Shown here: in pieces, positions 41,318 to 55,454 of the stretch
Position numbering within the stretch: position 1 is the first letter of the stretch
How the letters are laid out: each line of letters begins with the position of its first letter
From: a virus
Lineage: Duplodnaviria; Caudoviricetes
IMG/VR virus record: IMGVR_UViG_3300032307_000830
Span: 526-64,525 of that record
DNA: 64,000 nucleotides
Reading direction: 5' to 3' (one strand)
Translations under genes and position numbers: made by a program
The notes under the pieces: generated by a model
Seen by the model: only the letters and a program-made list of their open reading frames with translations
Told to the model about the DNA's origin: nothing
Database searches by the model: none

Positions 41318-42541
41318 TTATATCAATGTTTTGTAAATTTCAGCCCTATCCTTTGTTACGTTATTCAAATTATAGGTGTCTTTAACCGTCTCATACAATT
41401 TTTCACCAAGATCTTTAACCAGATTAGGGTTATCGACTAATCTTTTAACATGTTGGCTCCATTGTTTATGGTTCTTACTAGGATCCACCAACAAAGCATT
41501 ACCAGCATCATTAAAACCACCACCCTTTTCAATAGCTGAAATTAAATCGATCGTGTAAGGTCCATAATTTTGTGCAATAATAGCTTTTTTATGGAAACCA
41601 GCCTCAATAATTTTCAGTTGTGATTTATATTTGTTGAAAGAATTTTCAGCCAATGGCGCTAAAGCTACATCAAATTCATTATAACCCTTAGCATACGACT
41701 CGATACTTTTTGTCCATATTCTTTTATACGGCATATTACTATCATCGTAAGTTAATTGTTGATCAAACTTTAACAAGTACTTTAAATAATCTGGGTATTT
41801 TTCCAGTAATCTAAAATTATCGGTGATAAAGACTTCATACATAAACCAACTTGTCTCGATTGGTTGCATTTGTCTCTCCATCCATTGGTTAGTCTCTTTG
41901 TTAAACATCTTAACCTTACCTCTGGTATCATAACCACAAAGAACAAACTGTACTTTATCAGCATATTCTCTCGCTCTTTGTGGAACACCTTTCAGTAGTT
42001 CAATATCTTTTATATGCGATGAACCACCAAGCCAGCCAAATCTAAGTCTGTTCGATTCTTTAGCGTTTGGTTTAAATTGTGGTTCGTTTGGATTTAACGC
42101 GTTAGGTAAAATAACACAATTTTTGTTATACTTTAAAACCTCTTTTTGTAAAATACTAGTTGTTACGGTAATTAAATCAGATTGTTTAATGACATTTATT
42201 ATCGTACCAGCAAAATTAGAGCTTTTAGCTTGATTATACATGCCGTGTGATGGATCTAAATTCCAGTGGTCATCTAAATCTATGATAACTTTACCACCAA
42301 AAGACTGTATTTTTTTAATAACTTCAACTGGGTTGAAGAAATTATTACCTGGAACTCTGTGGAAGAAGAACAATTGGAATTTTTTCAAATAAGCCTCGTC
42401 ATCGAAATTAATATCATGGTTAATTTCGACAAAAAAATCGGATCCGTGGTTATTTTGTAAGGTAACATGTGGATCAACACATCTATATTTACCAGACCCA
42501 GCGCGATCGTTAGGGTTTACTAGGATATTTATCTTGCTCAT
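41318..42541 (-). CDS. GT-B glycosyltransferase
   Basis: GSGKYRC..P, DLDDHW, LPNA, GWLGGSSH..D, DVALAPL..N.FN..KSQLKIIEAG. Confidence 0.85.
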   Translation of the reverse strand: MSKINILVNPNDRAGSGKYRCVDPHVTLQNNHGSDFFVEINHDINFDDEAYLKKFQLFFFHRVPGNNFFNPVEVIKKIQSFGGKVIIDLDDHWNLDPSHGMYNQAKSSNFAGTIINVIKQSDLITVTTSILQKEVLKYNKNCVILPNALNPNEPQFKPNAKESNRLRFGWLGGSSHIKDIELLKGVPQRAREYADKVQFVLCGYDTRGKVKMFNKETNQWMERQMQPIETSWFMYEVFITDNFRLLEKYPDYLKYLLKFDQQLTYDDSNMPYKRIWTKSIESYAKGYNEFDVALAPLAENSFNKYKSQLKIIEAGFHKKAIIAQNYGPYTIDLISAIEKGGGFNDAGNALLVDPSKNHKQWSQHVKRLVDNPNLVKDLGEKLYETVKDTYNLNNVTKDRAEIYKTLI

Positions 42542-46167: not shown

Positions 46168-49100
46168 TTAAACTGGAATTTCTTCATCAAACCCAGGTAA
46201 TTTAAAGACAATGTTATCTTCAAACCAATAATCTGGCTCATAATTTAATTTAACCCAGAACTCCCTCTCCATTTGTGATGGAGTATAGAATTCATATAAT
46301 GTATCTTGATCCGCTATATCATCTGGTTCATCATTAACCAAATCCAACTCAGATTTAAGAAACATTTTTTTATCCTCTGGTTTTGTTATTAAGATATCAT
46401 ATCTATGTACTTTTGGGAAGGCTACAAGTAGAGGTTCAACCTTTTTATTGAATGAGTCTAGGTATTTCGGTACATTATACTCACCAATATAATCAGGTTG
46501 GTTCTCTATAATGTCATTTGGTACCAATGAAGCGTACATATTACCATTTTTGTCTTCCTGAGCATCGCCGTGCGATTTAACCTTACCGTTATTCACATAG
46601 TATATAGTATCACCAAGGTTCACATTTAAATTATGTTGTATAGCTAATTCCATGTGAGCTTGTTTAGCCAACTGCTTACCGTTTTTATCACCACCGCGAT
46701 TTATGTAATCATTTATCGACTTCTTGACTCTTGCTTTTGTTGCAATTTTAGCTAACGGTATTTGTCTGTTGTAGATTTTTTCAGCATACTCATGGTAATA
46801 TTGCACGAATTCATAACCTTGTCCGTTCAATAACATCTTCATACCTTTACCCAAAAACTCCTCAATGTATAAAGGCATGGCTTTAGACTTGATACTGTTA
46901 CCTGTTAAACTCACGGAACCATCATCTTCTAATAAAGCGTAGTTTTTTCTGGATAAATTAATAGTTGCTGGCCAAATACCGTCTAAACCAAGACCCATCT
47001 CACCTCGCATGTAGGTGTCATTAAATTCCGCAACAACAGCTTTAACACCAGTGTACTCTTTACCAGCTTCAACCTCATCATTTAAACCCTTTCCGATGTA
47101 TTTGAATGGTTCGCCATCTTTAGGGGCCATGAAGTTAACACCGTCCGTATCTAACACCAGCGGTTCGTAACCCCTTTTTGTGTAGAATTTAACCATTAAC
47201 CTCAAATATTGTCTTGCCGTACATGTAATTCGCTCACTGACATCGATTTCAGCCCATTGAAAGGCCATAGGAGCTCCAAGGGCACCGAACATCGAGTTGA
47301 TAAAGATCTTAAGCGGTAACTGCTTACGTTTATATTTATCGGCCAATTGGTAGTTACCTTCTTTTTTATATTTGTCAGATAATTTCTTAGCCTTGAAACG
47401 TTCGGTGTGGAAATATTTCAACATCGATTTCATCGCACCGTTAATATCAACGCTTGGGAACACATCGTGGGCCAACTGAATAGCTGGGTAAAGTGAGTTG
47501 TAGTCCATCTTTCTTAAAGTGGTTGAGTAACCAACTTTGAATAGTCTTGATAAACCACCTGTATAATCTCTTTTTGTGTCGGAAATAGGTATGGCTAAGT
47601 TGTTTTCAAAAGAATAAGCCATCATAAGTAACTTCCAAAGACCAGCAGTACCCATTGTTGAGACTCTTTGATATGTGGTTGGTACTAGTTTAGCCAACAA
47701 AAAGGAAGATTGGTTATATACCGCATCGACTTCCATTGTTTCCCATAAGTCATCAATAAGATATCGCTCAACAATATATTTACCATCAACCTCTTGAATG
47801 GAATTTACATAAGCTCTTAATGCTCTATAAGTGTCCATTAAAAAACTAAATGTTTTTGGAGCTCTCATCTTTAATTGAGATAACCCACTACCAGGAACAT
47901 TCGTTGGGAATACGACAGTTTTACCGTTTTTTAGGTGTTGGATTATTTCTTTAACACCCTCATTAATTTTAACCTTATTACTATCAAACTCATTGTCGTT
48001 AAAGAACGAATCATCGGTCATATAAGGTTTTTTCTTTGTTACGATACCAACAGTGTTTGGTTCACCGCGCATTTCTTTAGCCTGACCACCATAACCCTCT
48101 CTTAACTCATTGTCTCCGTAAACAAATACCTTATCTGGGTTTTGTTGGACGTGTTCTCTGGTTATATTATCCATGAACTCGATTGTTGGTTTTGTTGTTG
48201 TGTATCCACCATCTCGATCGTCAAAATAATAAGGTTTTTCCGAGTACCAGGTGTTACCGATCTTATCACCAAGAATATAAACACGGTTTTTCTTAGCAAT
48301 CTTGTTGTATTTACAAACGTATTTCAAACCAACAGATTTCATACTAGAATCAATCGCTTGTGCACGTCTAGCTGAGTGCATAATATCAATGATACTATAA
48401 CCAAACATATTTGTTTGGGTGTAATCCTCAACCTCGTTACCTAATTTGAGCATTGATTGTTTGTTGTTTATTAACTCACCAACCTTAAGTGTAATCGCTA
48501 TTTCTTGTATATTTAAACCAAGGATTTCACATCTTTTAAAAAAGAATGGCCAGTCAAAGTTTGCGCTGTTATAACCCGCAATAATTGTTGGTTTAATATC
48601 GTTAATTCTCTCAAAGAATTTAATGATACCCTGTCTTTCAGATTCATCGTTATCCTCAATAGGTATGATTTCTTCAACACCCTTATTGGTGTATATACCA
48701 ATCAAGAAAATTCGGTTGGTTTGCGGGTCAAGTCCTGTTGTCTCTAAGTCGAATATGAATTTATGAATATCATCATACTCCTCAAACCCCTTAAATAGTC
48801 GTTTACCAGTATGTATAAAATACTGCTCGACTGGTGGTATCATTAAAAAATGTGATTTAATATCGTGTCTTGTGTCGTAAATATAGATACCACCTTCTCT
48901 AAAGAAAGCTTTCATTCTTTCATTACCTTGCGTACAGGTAACCAAATATTTATATCCCTCAACAAGTTTTGGGTGGTCACCGTGTTCAAGTACTTTAATA
49001 TCGATACCGTATCTTTGTCTAGCCGCTTTAATCTTTGAGTCGCTGTTTCCGTAGAAATTTGTTAATTCCTTAACCTTATTAAGGTTTTTTATCCACATAA

Positions 49101-49269
49101 AAGCCAATAAAGGTTCCGTTTCAGTATAATTACCTAGTTCTGGATCCTGTTTTATCTTATGGATTAAATTAGTTTCCGCGTCATATTCGACATTGACAAT
49201 ATATTTTTCATCGTCATGTCCATTAAGGAACTTTTCTATATTCTCAAGCGAAATCTTATACTCGGCCAT
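46168..49269 (-). CDS. Family B DNA polymerase with ~130-aa macrodomain-like insertion in the 3'-5' exonuclease domain
   Basis: ExoI FDLETT, ExoII YNSANFDW, ExoIII YLIDD. Polymerase motifs DYNSLYP, QLPLKIFINSMFG, LDTDG, RKNY. Confidence 0.95.
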   Translation of the reverse strand: MAEYKISLENIEKFLNGHDDEKYIVNVEYDAETNLIHKIKQDPELGNYTETEPLLAFMWIKNLNKVKELTNFYGNSDSKIKAARQRYGIDIKVLEHGDHPKLVEGYKYLVTCTQGNERMKAFFREGGIYIYDTRHDIKSHFLMIPPVEQYFIHTGKRLFKGFEEYDDIHKFIFDLETTGLDPQTNRIFLIGIYTNKGVEEIIPIEDNDESERQGIIKFFERINDIKPTIIAGYNSANFDWPFFFKRCEILGLNIQEIAITLKVGELINNKQSMLKLGNEVEDYTQTNMFGYSIIDIMHSARRAQAIDSSMKSVGLKYVCKYNKIAKKNRVYILGDKIGNTWYSEKPYYFDDRDGGYTTTKPTIEFMDNITREHVQQNPDKVFVYGDNELREGYGGQAKEMRGEPNTVGIVTKKKPYMTDDSFFNDNEFDSNKVKINEGVKEIIQHLKNGKTVVFPTNVPGSGLSQLKMRAPKTFSFLMDTYRALRAYVNSIQEVDGKYIVERYLIDDLWETMEVDAVYNQSSFLLAKLVPTTYQRVSTMGTAGLWKLLMMAYSFENNLAIPISDTKRDYTGGLSRLFKVGYSTTLRKMDYNSLYPAIQLAHDVFPSVDINGAMKSMLKYFHTERFKAKKLSDKYKKEGNYQLADKYKRKQLPLKIFINSMFGALGAPMAFQWAEIDVSERITCTARQYLRLMVKFYTKRGYEPLVLDTDGVNFMAPKDGEPFKYIGKGLNDEVEAGKEYTGVKAVVAEFNDTYMRGEMGLGLDGIWPATINLSRKNYALLEDDGSVSLTGNSIKSKAMPLYIEEFLGKGMKMLLNGQGYEFVQYYHEYAEKIYNRQIPLAKIATKARVKKSINDYINRGGDKNGKQLAKQAHMELAIQHNLNVNLGDTIYYVNNGKVKSHGDAQEDKNGNMYASLVPNDIIENQPDYIGEYNVPKYLDSFNKKVEPLLVAFPKVHRYDILITKPEDKKMFLKSELDLVNDEPDDIADQDTLYEFYTPSQMEREFWVKLNYEPDYWFEDNIVFKLPGFDEEIPV

Positions 49270-49349: not shown

Positions 49350-49751
49350 TTAAACAATATCTGTTTTAATAAACGAGTCCAAAATATGGATGTACAATTC
49401 TTCTTGTATTGGTGCGATTAGTTCACCATAGACAGATGTTGGGTCCGCTAAATCAAAAAGAGTTAATTTAAACTCACCCAAAAAAATACCTGGTTTGTCA
49501 GTGTCGTCTTTTGTAAATTGGTAGGTTACAATGTAATGTTTATTACCATCCTCATCACACGGATTCTCTAAAACAATCTTAGCTTCTTTATTAGCGACTT
49601 TATAGATCCCAGTTTTTTCGTCTTTCATTGCGAAAGTTGCCACGCAATTTTCTATTAATTCTTCGAAACGTCTAAAATCATTACGCCCATCTCTGAAAAC
49701 TTTCATTTTCAAAATCGGTAATGTTGAATTTTGTCTTATACTGAATACCAT
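49350..49751 (-). CDS. BppU N-terminal-like (Ig-fold) structural protein
   Basis: F.IRQNSTLPILK...YQF...DTD.PG.F.GEF pattern. Confidence 0.5.
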   Translation of the reverse strand: MVFSIRQNSTLPILKMKVFRDGRNDFRRFEELIENCVATFAMKDEKTGIYKVANKEAKIVLENPCDEDGNKHYIVTYQFTKDDTDKPGIFLGEFKLTLFDLADPTSVYGELIAPIQEELYIHILDSFIKTDIV

Positions 49752-51271
49752 TAGAATAATTTATTAATAAATATCTTTCTACCCCCTTTTATTGTTCTTA
49801 GGTCATAAATATTGGCCATAGTATTAACTATTTTTTTAACCTCAACGCTATACAAAGGTACACAATACATTTGAAAATCTTTAACCCCACCTAAAAAGGT
49901 TCCAGCAAAAAACTTCTCAAGGACTGTGTTTATTCTTTTTGTCTCATCCAGGTAAAGGGCGTCTACTAGGTTTTGGGTACCGCCACCAAATGAGATATTA
50001 AATGGAACACCCTCTTGGTAGATAGTGTCAACATCTAATTCATGTGGAGTTACCTCAACAAAATCATAATGTCTTAAAACCAAAAACCCGTTAAGGTATA
50101 TTGATAACGTACCTCTCCTGTATTTTCCATATAACAGTTCACACGCGTCATTATAACCAAAATCCCTTTCAAAAACAGCACTTACGTGTAAGAATTTTTT
50201 TTCATTTACATCTATGACTGGTTTTTTGGTGTAACCCTCTTCTATTGTGAAATATTTTGTTACAATTAAAGATACGGTGTGGTTTACACATGGATCATCT
50301 GGTTGTAATATGAAAGAGTTTGTTGTTATACCACTAACTTCTTGTGTCTGACCAGTATAGCATATATCGGTTGGGTATATTGTTCGATACCCTATTCTAC
50401 CGTCATTAGTTATCCTGATACCAAATGCGTTGTAGTATAAATCGGAATATTCTTGGTGGTATTGTAAGACCTGTGATTGTGGTGTGTATCGTCTACCCGT
50501 ATACATTAACCCATTATAGTAGTTAAAATACCCAATATACTTTGAGAACCCATTTAATGTCACCATACCATTGTATGTGTATATATTTTGTAGTTCTTTT
50601 GGTATTATTGAGTAATTGTCGTTTAGTTTTTTAACTTCGACAACTGTTTTATCCGCGTATTTGTTTTCGGCCCTAGTTCCGATATAAAATATAAAACCAG
50701 TATTACCAGTAAAAACATCATTTAGTGTTGTGCCAGTTGTGGTACCAGTGGTTATCCCAGTAGTAACACCTGTGGTATCACCAGTTGTCGCACCCGTTGT
50801 TATCATCGGAAAGTGTAGCAACATGTTAACACTAAAACCTTTTCTACCTCTAGTCGGGAACCATTCAACTGGTTGTTTATGTATTTTATAGAACCCCTGA
50901 TAGAACCCACCAAGTAACTGGTTATAGTATTTATCGCCATCTAATTTCATGCGATCAATTTCGTATGTGTACTGACCTGTATACCCAGATACCTCATGAA
51001 AACAGAAAGTGTCACCGCTTTCAACAACATATGTTATTTCTGGATCGATGGTTCCATTACCGTTTGGTATGAAGAAATTATCATAACCATTAAGACCAAT
51101 ATAATCTAACGAAACATTTGTAGCCTGTACAATACCTGGTCTAGAACATAAACCCTCAGTAACATCAATTTTAATTAAATGACATTCACTATAGTCACGA
51201 TAAAAATCTCTACAATCTTTTGTGACAGTTAAATCAAAATATTCACTCTTATCTAGTTCGGTATAAAACAT
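49751..51271 (-). CDS. Hypothetical virion protein (beta-rich, LamG-like C-terminus possible)
   Basis: 506 aa; GTLSIYLNG and F.G.VKDFQMY..PL; internal TTG repeat. Confidence 0.55.
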   Translation of the reverse strand: MFYTELDKSEYFDLTVTKDCRDFYRDYSECHLIKIDVTEGLCSRPGIVQATNVSLDYIGLNGYDNFFIPNGNGTIDPEITYVVESGDTFCFHEVSGYTGQYTYEIDRMKLDGDKYYNQLLGGFYQGFYKIHKQPVEWFPTRGRKGFSVNMLLHFPMITTGATTGDTTGVTTGITTGTTTGTTLNDVFTGNTGFIFYIGTRAENKYADKTVVEVKKLNDNYSIIPKELQNIYTYNGMVTLNGFSKYIGYFNYYNGLMYTGRRYTPQSQVLQYHQEYSDLYYNAFGIRITNDGRIGYRTIYPTDICYTGQTQEVSGITTNSFILQPDDPCVNHTVSLIVTKYFTIEEGYTKKPVIDVNEKKFLHVSAVFERDFGYNDACELLYGKYRRGTLSIYLNGFLVLRHYDFVEVTPHELDVDTIYQEGVPFNISFGGGTQNLVDALYLDETKRINTVLEKFFAGTFLGGVKDFQMYCVPLYSVEVKKIVNTMANIYDLRTIKGGRKIFINKLF

Positions 51272-52405: not shown

Positions 52406-53578
52406 ATGATAAATGATAAATTTGGCGACTCTTTAGATAGATTTAAGGAGTTATATAACTATAGGATAAATGAATCGGCTTCTGTTAACGAGGTTGACTG
52501 GGACGAAGAATTTAGTGATGTTAAAAAAACTTGCTTAGCTCCAGAGATGGTTGTTAAAATGTTAAACGACCAATTAAGTCGATTAGATAAACCAAGTAAG
52601 GATAGAGAAAAAATAGACGCCAACACCCCAATAATTAGTAGGGGTAATTTACCATTAGCTGATGGTGATATTGATGTAAATCATTTTATAAAGGAAATAA
52701 CAGCCAGACCAAAACAAATATTTGACAGAAACCCTAAAATGGAGAAAAGTGATACTGGCGGTTTTCAATATACCGTTAACACTGGTATCCCAGCTTTAAG
52801 AGGTATCATCTATGACATTGATAATCAGAAGTTTTTTACGATAAACACCTGCCCAGGTGCTGGTACATGCGCGGTTAGTTGTTACGCTAGAAAGGGTTTT
52901 TACATAATGAATGATGGTAAAAACTTAAAATACATACAAAGATTAAATCTTTTATTAAACGATCCAGAGGAGTATGAAAATATTATTATGGATGAGCTAG
53001 ACCCTTTGGCTTATAAAATAAAAAGGGATTCTAGGAAAGAGGGTAAGGACATAAAATTGGTTATCAGATGGAACGATGCTGGTGATTTTTTCGCTAAAAG
53101 ATATTACGATATCGCGATTAGCGTTACAAACCAATTAGTTAAAGCTGGTTATAACATTGAATCGTATGCGTATACAAAGATGGGTGATGTCGCTAATATC
53201 GCTGATCCTAATTTCGTTATGAATTTTTCTGATGACGCAAATAAGAAAGAGACCGCTAAGGTTGATACAGAATCAGCTAAAATTTCCAAGATAGTACCAA
53301 AGGAATTGTTCAAAGACATTTTTCTTAAAGATGGCCCGTCTTACGTTAAAGATGAAAAAGGTAAAGCTATGTTTAAGGATGATGCTTCGAAAGAAAGATT
53401 AAAAAACTTAATAAGTGTTAAATATAACGTACCTTACGAGACACTAGCTTTTAATGATGAACTACCACCAGAACAAGGTACAGAATATCTTTACAATGTT
53501 ATAGTACTACCAACTGGTGATAGCGATATTGCTGCTCAAAGAAGAGACGTTAGGATTAGCTTTTTGCTACAACACTAA
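52406..53578 (+). CDS. Gp88-like protein with Cys cluster (radical-SAM-like fold)
   Basis: TCPGAGTCAVSCYARKG, IRWNDAGDFF, YAYTK. Confidence 0.7.
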   Translation: MINDKFGDSLDRFKELYNYRINESASVNEVDWDEEFSDVKKTCLAPEMVVKMLNDQLSRLDKPSKDREKIDANTPIISRGNLPLADGDIDVNHFIKEITARPKQIFDRNPKMEKSDTGGFQYTVNTGIPALRGIIYDIDNQKFFTINTCPGAGTCAVSCYARKGFYIMNDGKNLKYIQRLNLLLNDPEEYENIIMDELDPLAYKIKRDSRKEGKDIKLVIRWNDAGDFFAKRYYDIAISVTNQLVKAGYNIESYAYTKMGDVANIADPNFVMNFSDDANKKETAKVDTESAKISKIVPKELFKDIFLKDGPSYVKDEKGKAMFKDDASKERLKNLISVKYNVPYETLAFNDELPPEQGTEYLYNVIVLPTGDSDIAAQRRDVRISFLLQH

Positions 53579-55353
53579 CGCCTCAAACTACTAATAACCT
53601 CTTTACCAACAGAGATTTCTTCTTCTGATGGGTTATCACCCATTATAGTACCAATAACTTTCATTTTAGATTGTAGGGCTTTATACATTATCATATCCAA
53701 GGTTTCATCGAATAACGGATATATAATATGCACCTTATTTTGTTGGCCTATTCTGTGTGCTCTATCTTCAGCCTGCATATGATTAGCTGGGGTCCAGTCA
53801 AGATCGTTAAATATCACAACACTACCTTCGGTAAGTGTTAAACCAACACCAGCAGCCACAATATTACCGCAGAAAACGGTAATTTTTTCATCATTTTGAA
53901 ATAAGTCAACAGCTTGTTGGCGTTTTTCCTTAGAAACGGACCCATCAATCATAACAGCTTTTTTACCAAAATGGGCCATTAACTCTTTAATTGTGTTAGA
54001 GAAACAACTAAAAATAATAACCTTTTGGCCATTTTCAATAATCTCATCAGCCATTTCAATAGTGTGTTGGATCTTATCGTAAGATAACAATTGTCTAACT
54101 TTGATTAATTTTGTTAAGTGGTCAGTAACGGTTGGTTTTTCACCAGCAGCTTCCATTTCATCAATCCAAGCCTCATATTCCGCTATATAACTATTATAAC
54201 TGGTTGAGAACTCAAGAGGTAGATAAACTGGTTTTATTGTTTTTTGTGGTAAATCAATAGAATCATTTTTAGTTCTTCTTAAGATAACGTCTGACGAAAA
54301 TTCTCTAAGTTCATCTAAATTAGATGATCCTGAACAAACCCAGTATTTTTGTTTGGTTCCTTTACGGTTAAATTGTCTACCTGCACAATATCTTTTAACA
54401 TAACCAACCCAGTTAGCAGCAACTGGTGAGTCACACAAATACAATAAATTATAAAAGTCAATTGGTTTATTTGTGATCGGTGTACCAGTCAATAACCATC
54501 TAACGGGTATTTTTTTAGCAAAATCGTTAAATATTTTTGTTCTGTTTGATGCCGCGTTTTTTAGGTAATGAGCCTCATCAGCAATAACCAGATCAAATTT
54601 GTGGTAATCAATTGGTGAAACAGGTAGGTCACTAACTTTAACCCCTCTTCTAGGTAGGTGGTGGAAATTCTTTAAAATATCATAATTAACGATAGTCCAT
54701 TTCTTTACGGTTAAGTTACTTCCGTCAACAACAGAAATATTATCTGGTGAATCATAGTTTGATATTTCTATTTTCCAGTTTAGTTTTAATGACGCTGGAC
54801 AAACAACCAAGATTTTCTTGAAGTTACCTTCCATCGCGGCAATTATAGCTGAAGTGGTTTTACCTAAACCCATTTCATCCGCTAAGATGAACTTATCGTT
54901 CATTAACAATTTTTTTATCGCCGTTATTTGGTGTGGTTTTGGATCTCTCTCATATTTTGAGGGGTCGATAACTGGTTCCTCTTTTCTTTGTTTTATACAA
55001 TCTTTGAGAATATAAAAGGAGTAGTATCGGCCACAACCTTCTTCAAAGCAACCCCATATATGTAAAAAATCATCTTTTCGACTAAGAAGTTTATTTATGA
55101 AAATTTGTTCGGGTATAAAATCTAATTTTAATTGCTCGGCAACGAAAGCCCTGCAAGTCATACTTATATCAAAAAGTTTATTAACAACAATTGGGTCAAC
55201 GTTACCGTTTCTAACAATGTATTCGCTTTGCTTCTTTGTTGGGATGAAACTCTTACTAGTAAAGTACGTTTTTTGTATACCTAAAATATAGTCGTTAGCC
55301 CCTTTATAGACTTTTAATATATCTAAAGCACGTTTCTCTATTGGTAACTGCAT
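53575..55353 (-). CDS. SNF2-family helicase/annealing translocase (SMARCAL1/HARP-like)
   Basis: LADEMGLGKT, VVCPASLKLNW, DEAH, LTGTP, LRRTK, AGVGLTLT, WTP....QAEDRAHRIGQ. Confidence 0.93.
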   Translation of the reverse strand: MQLPIEKRALDILKVYKGANDYILGIQKTYFTSKSFIPTKKQSEYIVRNGNVDPIVVNKLFDISMTCRAFVAEQLKLDFIPEQIFINKLLSRKDDFLHIWGCFEEGCGRYYSFYILKDCIKQRKEEPVIDPSKYERDPKPHQITAIKKLLMNDKFILADEMGLGKTTSAIIAAMEGNFKKILVVCPASLKLNWKIEISNYDSPDNISVVDGSNLTVKKWTIVNYDILKNFHHLPRRGVKVSDLPVSPIDYHKFDLVIADEAHYLKNAASNRTKIFNDFAKKIPVRWLLTGTPITNKPIDFYNLLYLCDSPVAANWVGYVKRYCAGRQFNRKGTKQKYWVCSGSSNLDELREFSSDVILRRTKNDSIDLPQKTIKPVYLPLEFSTSYNSYIAEYEAWIDEMEAAGEKPTVTDHLTKLIKVRQLLSYDKIQHTIEMADEIIENGQKVIIFSCFSNTIKELMAHFGKKAVMIDGSVSKEKRQQAVDLFQNDEKITVFCGNIVAAGVGLTLTEGSVVIFNDLDWTPANHMQAEDRAHRIGQQNKVHIIYPLFDETLDMIMYKALQSKMKVIGTIMGDNPSEEEISVGKEVISSLRR

Positions 55354-55454
55354 TATATTACTTAATTCCTTGAATTTATTATTATTCAATAATAATAAAT
55401 TTTTATGACAAAGTCAATTCATTAATAAATGAATGTATTTATATAGAAAGAATA

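What the first reader, a model, noticed from the sequence alone, without database searches (positions are those of the whole stretch)
47800..48190. Macrodomain-like module inserted inside the proofreading domain of the phage DNA polymerase: candidate built-in ADP-ribose eraser (anti-DarT)
Seen: between ExoII (YNSANFDW) and ExoIII (YLIDD) the PolB carries an in-frame ~130-aa segment ITREHVQQNPDKVFVYGDNELREGYGGQAKEMRGEPNTVGIVTKKKP...FFND...KTVVFPTNVPGSGLSQL...APKTF. It has no intein hallmarks. Knowledge: macrodomains have an N-x(5-6)-GGGxA diphosphate loop and a later hxFPx(n)GxG loop, and both are echoed here (GDNELREGYGGQA; VVFPTNVPGSGL). I recall similar sequences as small standalone phage proteins. 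DarT toxins ADP-ribosylate phage DNA and stall replication, the DarG antitoxin is a macrodomain, and polymerase mutations are a known route of DarTG escape. Inference: the polymerase may bind or remove ADP-ribose from the template at the fork, making it a replicase with a fused counter-defence domain.
Basis: partly seen in the sequence, partly recalled or inferred. Interest (0 to 1): 0.9.

Follow-up and report, generated by a model that had tools for sequence, protein, structure and literature searches.

The report
Macro-like DUF7831 domain inside phage polymerase
A large uncultured phage's DNA-copying enzyme carries, inside its proofreading part, an intact small domain of unknown function (DUF7831) whose predicted shape is closest to enzymes that strip ADP-ribose marks from DNA and proteins, so the polymerase may clear a bacterial defence mark itself, but this is untested.

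Summary
Window 46168-49269 (-) encodes a 1033-aa family B DNA polymerase. Residues 364-479 (window 47833-48180), between ExoII and ExoIII, are a full-length Pfam DUF7831 domain (E 3.5e-42).

- **An insertion, not a universal part.** Sister polymerases about 52% identical lack it cleanly. Others keep a decayed copy. This copy keeps all 21 family-invariant residues.
- **Motifs.** Three motifs line up in order and spacing with DarG/AdfM-type macrodomains. Candidate catalytic residues are N387 and K412.
- **Partners.** Elsewhere the domain stands alone or is fused to SF1 helicases, cpYpsA, NADAR and DUF488 domains, some in giant proteins; a DUF488 fusion lies beside a relaxase gene.
- **DarT link.** None was found.

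The macro-like fold and the patchy presence are supported. The anti-DarT eraser role is a reasonable but untested inference. This scan has found the same arrangement before on other DNA. My searches found no paper describing it.

The parts
46168..49269 (-). Family B DNA polymerase gene (1033 aa, P0001) with N-terminal, 3'-5' exonuclease and polymerase regions
   Evidence: ORF and translation. Pfam DNA_pol_B_exo1 aa 198-317 and DNA_pol_B aa 611-696. PHROG phrog_262 DNA polymerase, E 2.9e-46. Full-length AlphaFold model, pLDDT 89.4.
48733..48753 (-). ExoI motif FDLETTG (aa 173-179)
   Evidence: Located. D174, E176 and T177 are invariant in alignment A2.
48550..48573 (-). ExoII motif YNSANFDW (aa 233-240)
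   Evidence: Located. F238 and D239 are invariant in A2.
47833..48180 (-). DUF7831 (PF25176) domain, aa 364-479. Compared with insert-less relatives, the inserted stretch is about aa 360-477 (window 47839-48192).
   Evidence: Pfam E 3.5e-42. Alone, the segment scores E 7.8e-44. Alignment with insert-less polymerases. AlphaFold model of the segment, pLDDT 92.8.
48055..48117 (-). Motif 1, GDN-x4-G-x-GGQAKEMRGEPN (aa 385-405). N387 is the candidate equivalent of the DarG/AdfM active-site Asn.
   Evidence: These residues are invariant in 52 of 52 family members. Global profile alignment puts N387 on AdfM N23 and the A-K pair on A33-K34. The active-site residues of DarG2 and AdfM come from a figure-legend passage of PMC13309987.
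48025..48039 (-). Motif 2, TKKKP (aa 411-415). K412 is the candidate equivalent of the catalytic Lys of DarG (K80) and AdfM (K78).
   Evidence: K is invariant in 52 of 52 family members and in all 34 polymerase inserts that keep 15 or more of the 21 invariant residues. The half-domain global profile alignment puts T-K on T77-K78. Confidence in that alignment is low.
47872..47916 (-). Motif 3, VVFP-x4-G-x-G-L-x2-L (aa 452-466), the second glycine-rich loop
   Evidence: G460, G462 and L466 are invariant in the family. The motif aligns with the IPPLGCGxGGL loop of the AdfM/DarG-like family, P 0.0012-0.005.
47749..47763 (-). ExoIII motif YLIDD (aa 503-507), 24 residues after the end of the DUF7831 match
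   Evidence: Located. Y503, L504, D506 and D507 are invariant in A2.
47140..47505 (-). Polymerase motifs A (DYNSLYPA, aa 589-596), B (KIFINSMFGAL, aa 654-664) and C (DTDG, aa 707-710)
   Evidence: Located. Their key residues are invariant in A2.

Best explanation
The segment is an intact DUF7831 domain. It looks like a stripped-down, roughly 118-aa relative of the small TARG1/Poa1p/DarG-type macrodomains. It sits in a surface loop of the 3'-5' exonuclease domain, just before ExoIII, of the replicative family B polymerase of an uncultured phage that encodes a tail-sheath protein. CheckV's completeness estimate implies a genome near 290 kb.

The most likely mechanism is as follows. The two glycine-rich loops (aa 385-405 and 452-466) form a cleft for an ADP-ribose-type ligand. 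N387 and K412 act like the Asn/Lys pair of DarG and AdfM. Because the domain is tethered to an enzyme that tracks along single-stranded template, it finds and removes (or at least senses) an ADP-ribosyl-type adduct on DNA at the fork, such as the marks written by DarT toxins.

**Shown:** domain identity, the insertion, intact family signature, patchy distribution, closest fold, fusion partners.

**Inferred:** the ligand, catalysis, the DNA substrate and the defence system it counters.

My odds by layer:
- Macro-like fold, about 0.7.
- ADP-ribose- or NAD-derived ligand, about 0.55.
- Acts on DNA adducts at the fork, about 0.4.
- Specifically anti-DarT, about 0.3.
For: **Identity.** Pfam DUF7831 matches at E 3.5e-42. 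All 21 family-invariant and 9 nearly invariant residues are present in this copy.

**Insertion.** Eleven of the 52 aligned relatives have 55 residues where the window has 171 (aa 335-505). The flanks align on both sides.

**Selection on the signature.** Thirty-one of the 52 sampled polymerases keep 18 or more of the 21 invariants. This holds down to 50% identity in the rest of the protein.

**Fold.**
- The model has pLDDT 92.8.

**Motifs.**
- hhalign against a 67-sequence AdfM/DarG-like family gives P 0.0012. That is better than all 12 unrelated control profiles, whose best P was 0.023.
- Global alignments put N387 on AdfM N23, the A-K pair on A33-K34, T-K on T77-K78, and the P-x2-G-x3-G loop in register.
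- By my own count on the sequences, the Lys-to-Pro spacing is 43 residues in both families.

**Context.** Among 31 multidomain DUF7831 proteins scanned with Pfam, the partners are SF1 helicases (4), cpYpsA SLOG (5, one below cut-off), NADAR (2), DUF488-N3a (3), a MuF polyvalent protein (1) and MutL_C (1).
- Iyer et al. [quoted passage not shown] DUF7831 occupies that slot here.
- In Pyrinomonadaceae genomes a 1553-aa DUF7831-DUF488 protein lies directly downstream of a MobL/VirD2-type relaxase gene.

**Precedent.** Phage stand-alone macrodomain AdfM removes DarT2 marks from DNA (PMC13309987, passages).
Against: - Foldseek found no PDB match at E <= 1e-3. Its best TM-score, normalised to the query, was 0.45.
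- There is no sequence match to any PDB chain, by phmmer or by profile.
- hhalign probabilities are 1-19%.
- Pfam Macro matched 1 of 52 family members at E 0.12. NCBIfam DarG matched 1 of 52 at E 0.01. Neither matched the window's copy.
- The full-length global alignment put FPTK on FFND, not on TKK. The Lys equivalence therefore rests on the half-domain alignment and on spacing.
- The model shows only four strands of three or more residues. A macrodomain core has six (Iyer 2022).
- K398 of the QAKEM motif is replaced in several otherwise intact polymerase inserts.
- Ten of the 52 sampled relatives keep an eroded or degenerate insert. The scaffold can therefore persist without the signature.
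- No link to DarT was found in 10 scanned neighbours or in 15 bacterial genomes.
- Iyer et al. 2022 argue in their abstract that phage ADP-ribose-targeting domains more likely counter soluble derivatives.
Confidence: 0.4

Rival explanations
1. The domain acts on a soluble NAD- or ADP-ribose-derived molecule, for example a cyclic ADP-ribose-type immune signal or ADP-ribose-1''-phosphate. On this reading the fusion to the polymerase only secures early, stoichiometric expression at the site of replication. DNA is not the substrate.
For: - The most frequent Pfam-confirmed partner is the cpYpsA SLOG domain (5 of 31, one below cut-off), followed by NADAR.
- Iyer et al. 2022 predict that viral SLOG domains degrade cADPR-like signals (section 3.4.4). 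Their abstract says phage ADP-ribose-targeting domains more likely counter soluble derivatives.
Against: - The repeated, independent fusions are to enzymes that move on DNA: PolB here, SF1 helicases in 4 of 31, and a UvrB-interaction domain and MutL_C in one each. A soluble substrate does not explain these well.
- The closest solved relatives by Z include DarG, which acts on DNA.
Confidence: 0.2
2. The insert is now a non-catalytic module of this polymerase clade. It could be a docking surface for other replisome proteins, a DNA-binding flap, or a ligand sensor that regulates the switch between proofreading and synthesis. Any ancestral enzyme activity would be dispensable.
For: - Seven of the 52 sampled relatives keep an insert of 73-115 residues with only 2-7 of the 21 invariants. 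Three close relatives (79-84% identical outside the insert) have lost 5-6 invariants, including loop glycines.
- Their Pfam scores drop from 149-155 bits to 103-118 bits.
- The insert's C-terminal helix runs on toward the ExoIII helix in the full-length model.
- The insert diverges faster than the rest of the protein in some close relatives: 60-61% against 85-86% identity.
Against: - This copy keeps 21 of 21 invariants, and 31 of 52 keep 18 or more across deep divergence. The same signature is invariant in stand-alone proteins that have no polymerase to dock on.
- Eleven of the 52 relatives work without any insert.
Confidence: 0.2
3. DUF7831 is not a macrodomain relative. It would be another small Rossmann-like nucleotide-processing enzyme, for example a phosphatase, a nucleotide or nucleoside hydrolase, or an enzyme that handles a modified base or its precursor. 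On this reading the macrodomain resemblance is convergence of a common alpha/beta sandwich.
For: - Foldseek's top rows were protein tyrosine phosphatases and Get3 at E 0.05-0.1.
- Profile similarity to macrodomains is not significant by probability.
- A glycosyltransferase-like gene lies in the window at 41321-42541. DNA modification by this phage is therefore possible.
Against: - Macrodomains are a small share of PDB clusters (my own estimate), yet they fill 11-14 of the top 17 rows of an unbiased search and 10 of the top 11 of the second look.
- Three motifs agree in order and spacing.
- The fusion partners are those known for viral Macro domains.
Confidence: 0.12
4. The segment is a selfish insertion (intein-like or a recent mobile cassette) with no function for the phage.
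For: It is a clean in-frame insertion that sister polymerases lack. Another relative, P0173 (1392 aa), does carry intein and LAGLIDADG families (precomputed Pfam list).
Against: - No Hint, intein or endonuclease family matches P0001.
- No repeats flank the segment.
- Its G+C equals that of the gene.
- It is conserved at the same site across polymerases down to about 50% identity, with an invariant signature.
Confidence: 0.02

Closest known systems
Pfam DUF7831 (PF25176) / PHROG phrog_2072: stand-alone proteins of about 120-160 aa in phages, giant viruses and some bacteria
   Same: The match covers profile positions 2-117 of 118, and all invariant residues are present. BFVD models of DUF7831 proteins from Tupanvirus, Hyperionvirus, Caulobacter phage Seuss and Rhizobium phage RHph_N34 superpose at TM 0.88-0.91.
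   Different: Here the domain is not a separate protein. It is inserted inside the exonuclease domain of a polymerase. The family has no assigned function, and a full-text search for 'DUF7831' found 0 papers.
TARG1/C6orf130, yeast Poa1p and the DarG antitoxin macrodomain (PDB 2L8R, 4J5S, 6LFQ, 5M3E, 5M3I)
   Different: - DUF7831 is about 30 residues shorter between motifs 1 and 2 (my count), and fewer strands are predicted.
- Sequence and profile similarity are not significant.
- The DarT-binding C-terminal domain of DarG is absent.
- Activity is unknown.
AdfM (PhiKZ gp104), the phage anti-DarT factor with a macrodomain (PMC13309987)
   Same: It is a phage-encoded small macro-type domain placed where phage DNA is replicated. 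The paper shows that it removes DarT2 ADP-ribose marks from DNA and that N23 is needed (passages). The window's N387 and K412 align with its N23 and K78 in low-confidence profile alignments.
   Different: AdfM is a stand-alone, canonical PF01661 macrodomain of 162 aa. The window's domain is a DUF7831 fused into the polymerase. hhalign probability between the two families is 19% or less.
NADAR-type anti-DarT factor AdfN and DarG1 NADAR antitoxins
   Same: They play the same proposed role, a phage-borne eraser of DNA ADP-ribosylation (passage in PMC13309987; listing of PMC11825919). NADAR and DUF7831 occur together in two giant proteins, P0247 and P0252.
   Different: NADAR is a different Pfam family (PF08719) that does not match the insert. 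No NADAR over the Pfam cut-off was found in the window's record or in four related records, all of which are fragments.
Ordinary phage family B DNA polymerases (T4/RB69 gp43 type) and the insert-less sister clade
   Same: The Exo I-III and polymerase A-C motifs are present and conserved. Sister polymerases of about 940 aa are 50-55% identical outside the insert.
   Different: They have about 55 residues where this enzyme has 171, between aa 335 and 505. None of 50,697 deposited phage records holds a match covering 80% or more of this protein.

Membership tests
Pfam DUF7831 (PF25176) | Match to the family profile above the curated cut-off, over its full length | tested here: met
   143.4 bits against a cut-off of 27, E 3.5e-42, profile positions 2-117 of 118. 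The segment alone scores 148.8 bits.
Pfam DUF7831 (PF25176) | The family's invariant signature: GDN, G-x-GGQAKEMRGEPN, G, TK, P, G-x-G, L, P | tested here: met
   21 of 21 invariant and 9 of 9 nearly invariant positions of alignment A1 are present in the window's copy.
Macrodomain superfamily | Three-layer alpha/beta/alpha fold with a six-stranded sheet in the order 1-5-6-2-4-3 (Iyer et al. 2022, section 3.4.1) | tested here: inconclusive
Macrodomain superfamily | Conserved glycine-rich (GxG) loop after the second conserved strand, forming part of the ADP-ribose cleft | tested here: met
   G392-x-G394-G395 follows the second strand (model E22-29). It aligns with the G-x-M-G-x-G loop of the AdfM/DarG-like family. 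Whether it lines a cleft was not measured.
Macrodomain superfamily | Match to Pfam Macro (PF01661) or significant profile-profile similarity | tested here: not met
   The insert gives no Macro match at E <= 10, and 1 of 52 family members matches at E 0.12. hhalign probability is 19% at best, P 0.0012. That is better than the 12 control profiles, but not significant by probability.
Macrodomain superfamily | Binds ADP-ribose or a derivative | not testable with these tools
   This needs a binding assay or a structure with ligand.
DarG/TARG1-type DNA or protein ADP-ribosyl hydrolases | Active-site Asn and catalytic Lys (DarG2 N22/K80, AdfM N23/K78; figure-legend passage of PMC13309987) | tested here: inconclusive
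   N387 aligns with N23. K412 aligns with K78 only in the half-domain alignment, while the full-length alignment placed FPTK elsewhere. Both residues are invariant in the family.
DarG antitoxin (NCBIfam NF048014) | Match to the DarG model, a C-terminal DarT-binding domain, and a neighbouring DarT gene | tested here: not met
   The insert matches no NCBIfam family at E <= 10. The domain is only about 118 aa and lies inside a polymerase. No DarT match was found in 15 bacterial genomes carrying DUF7831, in a search with no positive control.
Family B DNA polymerase | Exo I, II, III motifs and polymerase motifs A, B, C | tested here: met
   All six motifs were located. Pfam DNA_pol_B_exo1 and DNA_pol_B match. 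PHROG DNA polymerase matches at E 2.9e-46.
Intein | Hint domain, splice-junction residues, often a homing endonuclease | tested here: not met
   No Hint, intein or LAGLIDADG family matches P0001 at E <= 1. The segment is instead a DUF7831 domain.

The most novel reading that the evidence does not exclude
This would be a replicative DNA polymerase with a built-in eraser of DNA ADP-ribosylation. A minimal macro-type hydrolase with an N387/K412 pair rides on the proofreading domain and clears DarT-type marks from the template as the fork advances.

On this reading DUF7831 is a new, widespread minimal macro clade. Mobile elements would attach it to whatever enzyme meets single-stranded DNA first: PolB, SF1 helicases, or relaxase-associated giant proteins.
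Probability: 0.3. Interest if true: 0.85.

Novelty: new variant of a known kind. Interest (0 to 1): 0.62.

Why it matters
Known phage answers to DarT toxins are separate proteins (AdfA, AdfB, AdfN, AdfM) or point mutations in the polymerase (passages of PMC13309987). A repair or eraser domain built into the replicase would be a third route. It would show that counter-defence can be wired directly into core replication enzymes.

It would also give a function to DUF7831. That family had 1984 representative clusters at E <= 1e-3 in a 1.84-billion-protein library. It occurs in phages, giant viruses, conjugative-element proteins and bacteria.

The idea is directly testable with a 130-aa domain and two point mutants. 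If the domain proves inactive or works on another ligand, the arrangement is still a clear case of domain gain, maintenance and decay inside an essential enzyme.

Tried and rejected
**Searches that found nothing useful**
- Megablast of the gene against 50,697 phage records gave no match.
- phmmer and profile searches against PDB sequences found nothing. The best was triosephosphate isomerase at E 0.31, which I take as chance.
- Foldseek against the PDB gave no match at E <= 1e-3.
- Single-sequence hhalign against PhiKZ gp104 gave probability 1%.
- A richer 342-sequence DUF7831 alignment did not improve the profile match (probability 7%).
- The protein atlas gave only leads below 0.9: A1S_2505 family at 0.87, and a cluster with Macro in 11% of members at 0.81.

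**Tests that did not settle the question**
- *Split versus fused.* I tested whether insert-less phages carry a separate DUF7831 gene. None of 30 insert-less records has any DUF7831, while 11 of 11 insert-bearing records have exactly one, inside the polymerase. I gave that of the 80 loci, namely those on contigs of 25 kb or more except L025, L030, L036, L044, L068 and L072. All records are fragments, 8-75% complete.
- *Domain tree.* In a tree of 342 sequences over 127 columns, the polymerase inserts are not resolved as one clade. Their common ancestor node holds 76 PolB tips and 55 others. I draw no conclusion about one or several insertions.
- *Partner counts.* My own jackhmmer counts were cpYpsA 17, SF1 helicase 7, NADAR 6 and DUF488 6, out of 65. 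Pfam did not confirm 6 of the 8 rechecked cpYpsA calls at E <= 0.1. I therefore rely only on Pfam-confirmed counts.
- *Other ADP-ribose enzymes.* No canonical Macro or NADAR over cut-off was found in the window's record or four related records, all fragments.
- *DarT.* The DarT search rang in no genome and no control, so it is uninformative.

**Literature.** Searches for 'DUF7831', for polyvalent proteins with macro, for DarT, phage, macrodomain and polymerase, and for macro domain, DNA polymerase B and jumbo phage found no description of this fusion. Term look-ups inside PMC9503650, PMC5512222 and PMC7824862 found none either. The domain tables of Iyer et al. 2022 may already list these proteins as Macro.
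Full report
**What is there**

The window is nearly all (64,000 of 64,525 bases) of an IMG/VR virus record that CheckV puts at 22% complete. This points to a phage genome near 290 kb. Nearby genes include an SNF2-type helicase, a 1023-aa tail sheath protein and a head-tail adaptor. On this evidence it is a phage with a contractile tail.

The ORF at 46168-49269 (-) encodes a 1033-aa family B DNA polymerase. All six classical motifs are present:
- ExoI at aa 173-179, ExoII at 233-240, ExoIII at 503-507.
- Motifs A, B and C at 589-596, 654-664 and 707-710.

Residues 364-479 lie between ExoII and ExoIII (window 47833-48180). They match Pfam DUF7831 over 116 of its 118 positions, with E 3.5e-42 and 143 bits against a cut-off of 27.

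There is no Hint or intein match, no flanking repeat and no shift in G+C (0.362 against 0.357).

**It is an insertion, and a patchy one**

Of the 120 best polymerase relatives listed, 76 carry the precomputed PF25176 label by my count of the table.

I aligned 52 of them, chosen to span the identity range. Between aa 335 and 505 the window has 171 residues. Eleven relatives have 55, and the flanks align cleanly on both sides. I then scored the 21 family-invariant positions in each:

| Class | Number of 52 | Invariants kept |
|---|---|---|
| Intact (includes the window, 21 of 21) | 31 | 18 or more |
| Eroded (close relatives, 79-84% identical outside the insert) | 3 | 15-16 |
| Degenerate insert of 73-115 residues | 7 | 2-7 |
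| No insert | 11 | not applicable |

In IMG/VR, 11 of 11 records with an insert-bearing polymerase have exactly one DUF7831 match, the one inside the polymerase. None of 30 records with an insert-less polymerase has any. I gave that search 41 of the 80 loci, and all records are fragments.

The domain is therefore an accessory gain. It is kept under constraint in most lineages, is decaying in some, and is absent in the sister clade. It is not a universal structural part. No deposited phage genome holds a comparable fused polymerase.

**What the domain looks like**

A model built from the insert plus 51 stand-alone homologues has pLDDT 92.8. The same fold appears inside the full-length model, which has pLDDT 89.4.

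- Foldseek found nothing significant in the PDB.
- In BFVD it found only other DUF7831 proteins, from giant viruses, Caulobacter and Rhizobium phages and crAss-like phages.

**Sequence-level test**

I took PhiKZ gp104 (AdfM) from its GenBank record. I collected its family and aligned 67 members.

- hhalign of the DUF7831 alignment against this family gave probability 19% and P 0.0012, on the segment holding the second glycine-rich loop.
- Twelve unrelated control profiles, cut from the polymerase alignment, gave a best P of 0.023.
- Global alignments put GDN-Asn on AdfM N23 and the following A-K on A33-K34.
- With the C-terminal halves alone, T-K falls on T77-K78. The full-length alignment placed that motif elsewhere, so confidence is low.

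By my own count on the two alignments, the Lys-to-Pro distance is 43 residues in both families. DUF7831 lacks about 30 residues between motifs 1 and 2.

The paper on AdfM names N22/K80 of DarG2 and N23/K78 of AdfM as active-site residues. It shows that AdfM removes DarT2 marks from DNA (passages). N387 and K412 of the window's polymerase are invariant in the family. They are kept even in the eroded polymerase copies.

**Company it keeps**

A search of 1.84 billion representatives found 1984 clusters at E <= 1e-3. They range from 120-aa stand-alone proteins to proteins of more than 6000 aa.

Pfam scans of 31 multidomain members gave these partners:

| Partner | Members of 31 |
|---|---|
| RecD/Pif1-type SF1 helicase | 4 |
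| cpYpsA SLOG | 5 (one below cut-off) |
| NADAR | 2 (both also have cpYpsA) |
| DUF488-N3a | 3 |
| Zeta-like kinase + UvrB-interaction domain + MuF | 1 |
| Sigma-70 regions 3/4 | 1 |
| MutL_C | 1 (marginal) |
| None found | 16 |

Iyer et al. [quoted passage not shown] DUF7831 sits in that position in P0247 and P0252.

In Pyrinomonadaceae genomes a 1553-aa DUF7831-DUF488 protein follows a MobL/VirD2-type relaxase gene. In Methylobacterium the stand-alone gene lies beside a cytosine methylase-containing protein and, in another locus, an R2K ATP-grasp gene.

None of the ten neighbours scanned is an ADP-ribosyltransferase. None of 15 such genomes gave a DarT match, in a search with no positive control.

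**Reading**

I hold with high confidence that this is an intact DUF7831 domain inserted in the proofreading domain. I hold with moderate confidence (about 0.7) that the family is a minimal relative of TARG1/DarG-type macrodomains.

The fusions to a polymerase and to helicases, and the relaxase-associated giant proteins, all concern enzymes that meet single-stranded DNA. That favours a DNA-borne adduct as substrate. The SLOG and NADAR partners place the domain in the NAD/ADP-ribose network.

The step to DarT is an inference from precedent, with no direct evidence here. Rivals that remain open:
- A soluble ADP-ribose-derived substrate.
- A now non-catalytic module. The decayed copies show that the scaffold can persist without the signature.
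- A non-macro Rossmann-like enzyme.

**Novelty**

My full-text searches found no paper on DUF7831 or on a macro-type insert in a phage polymerase. Look-ups inside three comparative-genomics papers found none either. Supplements were closed and may list these proteins.

The same arrangement was noted by this scan in several other genomes, with the same partial verdict, including one eroded copy. I reached the erosion and fold results independently. I took the lead to the AdfM paper from those notes and then checked the paper myself.

Noticed in passing
Relatives P0126, P0129, P0133; IMG/VR loci L006-L011: Polymerases 76-84% identical to the window's have a DUF7831 insert in which 5-6 family-invariant residues, mostly loop glycines, are replaced. 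Pfam scores fall to 103-118 bits, against 149-155 for the intact copies. The insert appears to be decaying in a sister lineage.
   Followed up: partly
Relatives P0184, P0185, P0186, P0202, P0206, P0210, P0235: These seven polymerases keep an insert of 73-115 residues at the same site but only 2-7 of the 21 invariant residues. They look like degenerate remnants, or possibly a replaced domain.
   Followed up: partly
Relative P0173: This polymerase is 1392 aa long. Besides PF25176 it carries the precomputed families PF14528 (LAGLIDADG_3) and PF14890, which I take to be an intein elsewhere in the same gene.
   Followed up: no
L084:3147-10569 and the matching loci L083, L086, L088, L092, L094, L096, L097, L101: In Pyrinomonadaceae (Acidobacteriota) assemblies, DUF7831 is the N-terminal domain of 1500-2000-aa proteins that also have DUF488. 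These lie directly downstream of a MobL/VirD2-type relaxase gene, in a gene order conserved across loci. They are probably polyvalent proteins of a conjugative element.
   Followed up: partly
Proteins P0309, P0313, P0330, P0361: In these proteins DUF7831 is fused to RecD/Pif1-type SF1 helicases. P0330 also has an intein with a homing endonuclease.
   Followed up: partly
Proteins P0242 and P0329: P0242 (300 aa) has two DUF7831 domains in tandem. P0329 (367 aa) joins sigma-70 regions 3 and 4 to a C-terminal DUF7831.
   Followed up: no
window 49751-51271 (-): This 506-aa ORF just upstream of the polymerase gene has no PHROG match. It contains a run of Thr-Thr-Gly-type repeats (TTGATTGDTTGVTTGITTGTTTGTT) in its middle.
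   Followed up: no
window 41321-42541 (-) and 53578-55389 (-): The first ORF is glycosyltransferase-like (phrog_7162, E 1.4e-43). The second is an SNF2-type DNA helicase (phrog_62, E 1.3e-108). Both lie near the polymerase gene.
   Followed up: no
Polymerase inserts in alignment A2: The Lys of the QAKEM motif is invariant in the 52 family sequences of A1 (51 stand-alone proteins and the window's insert). In 9 otherwise intact polymerase inserts it is replaced by A, G, L, Q or E. The Asn of GDN and the Lys of TK never change.
   Followed up: partly
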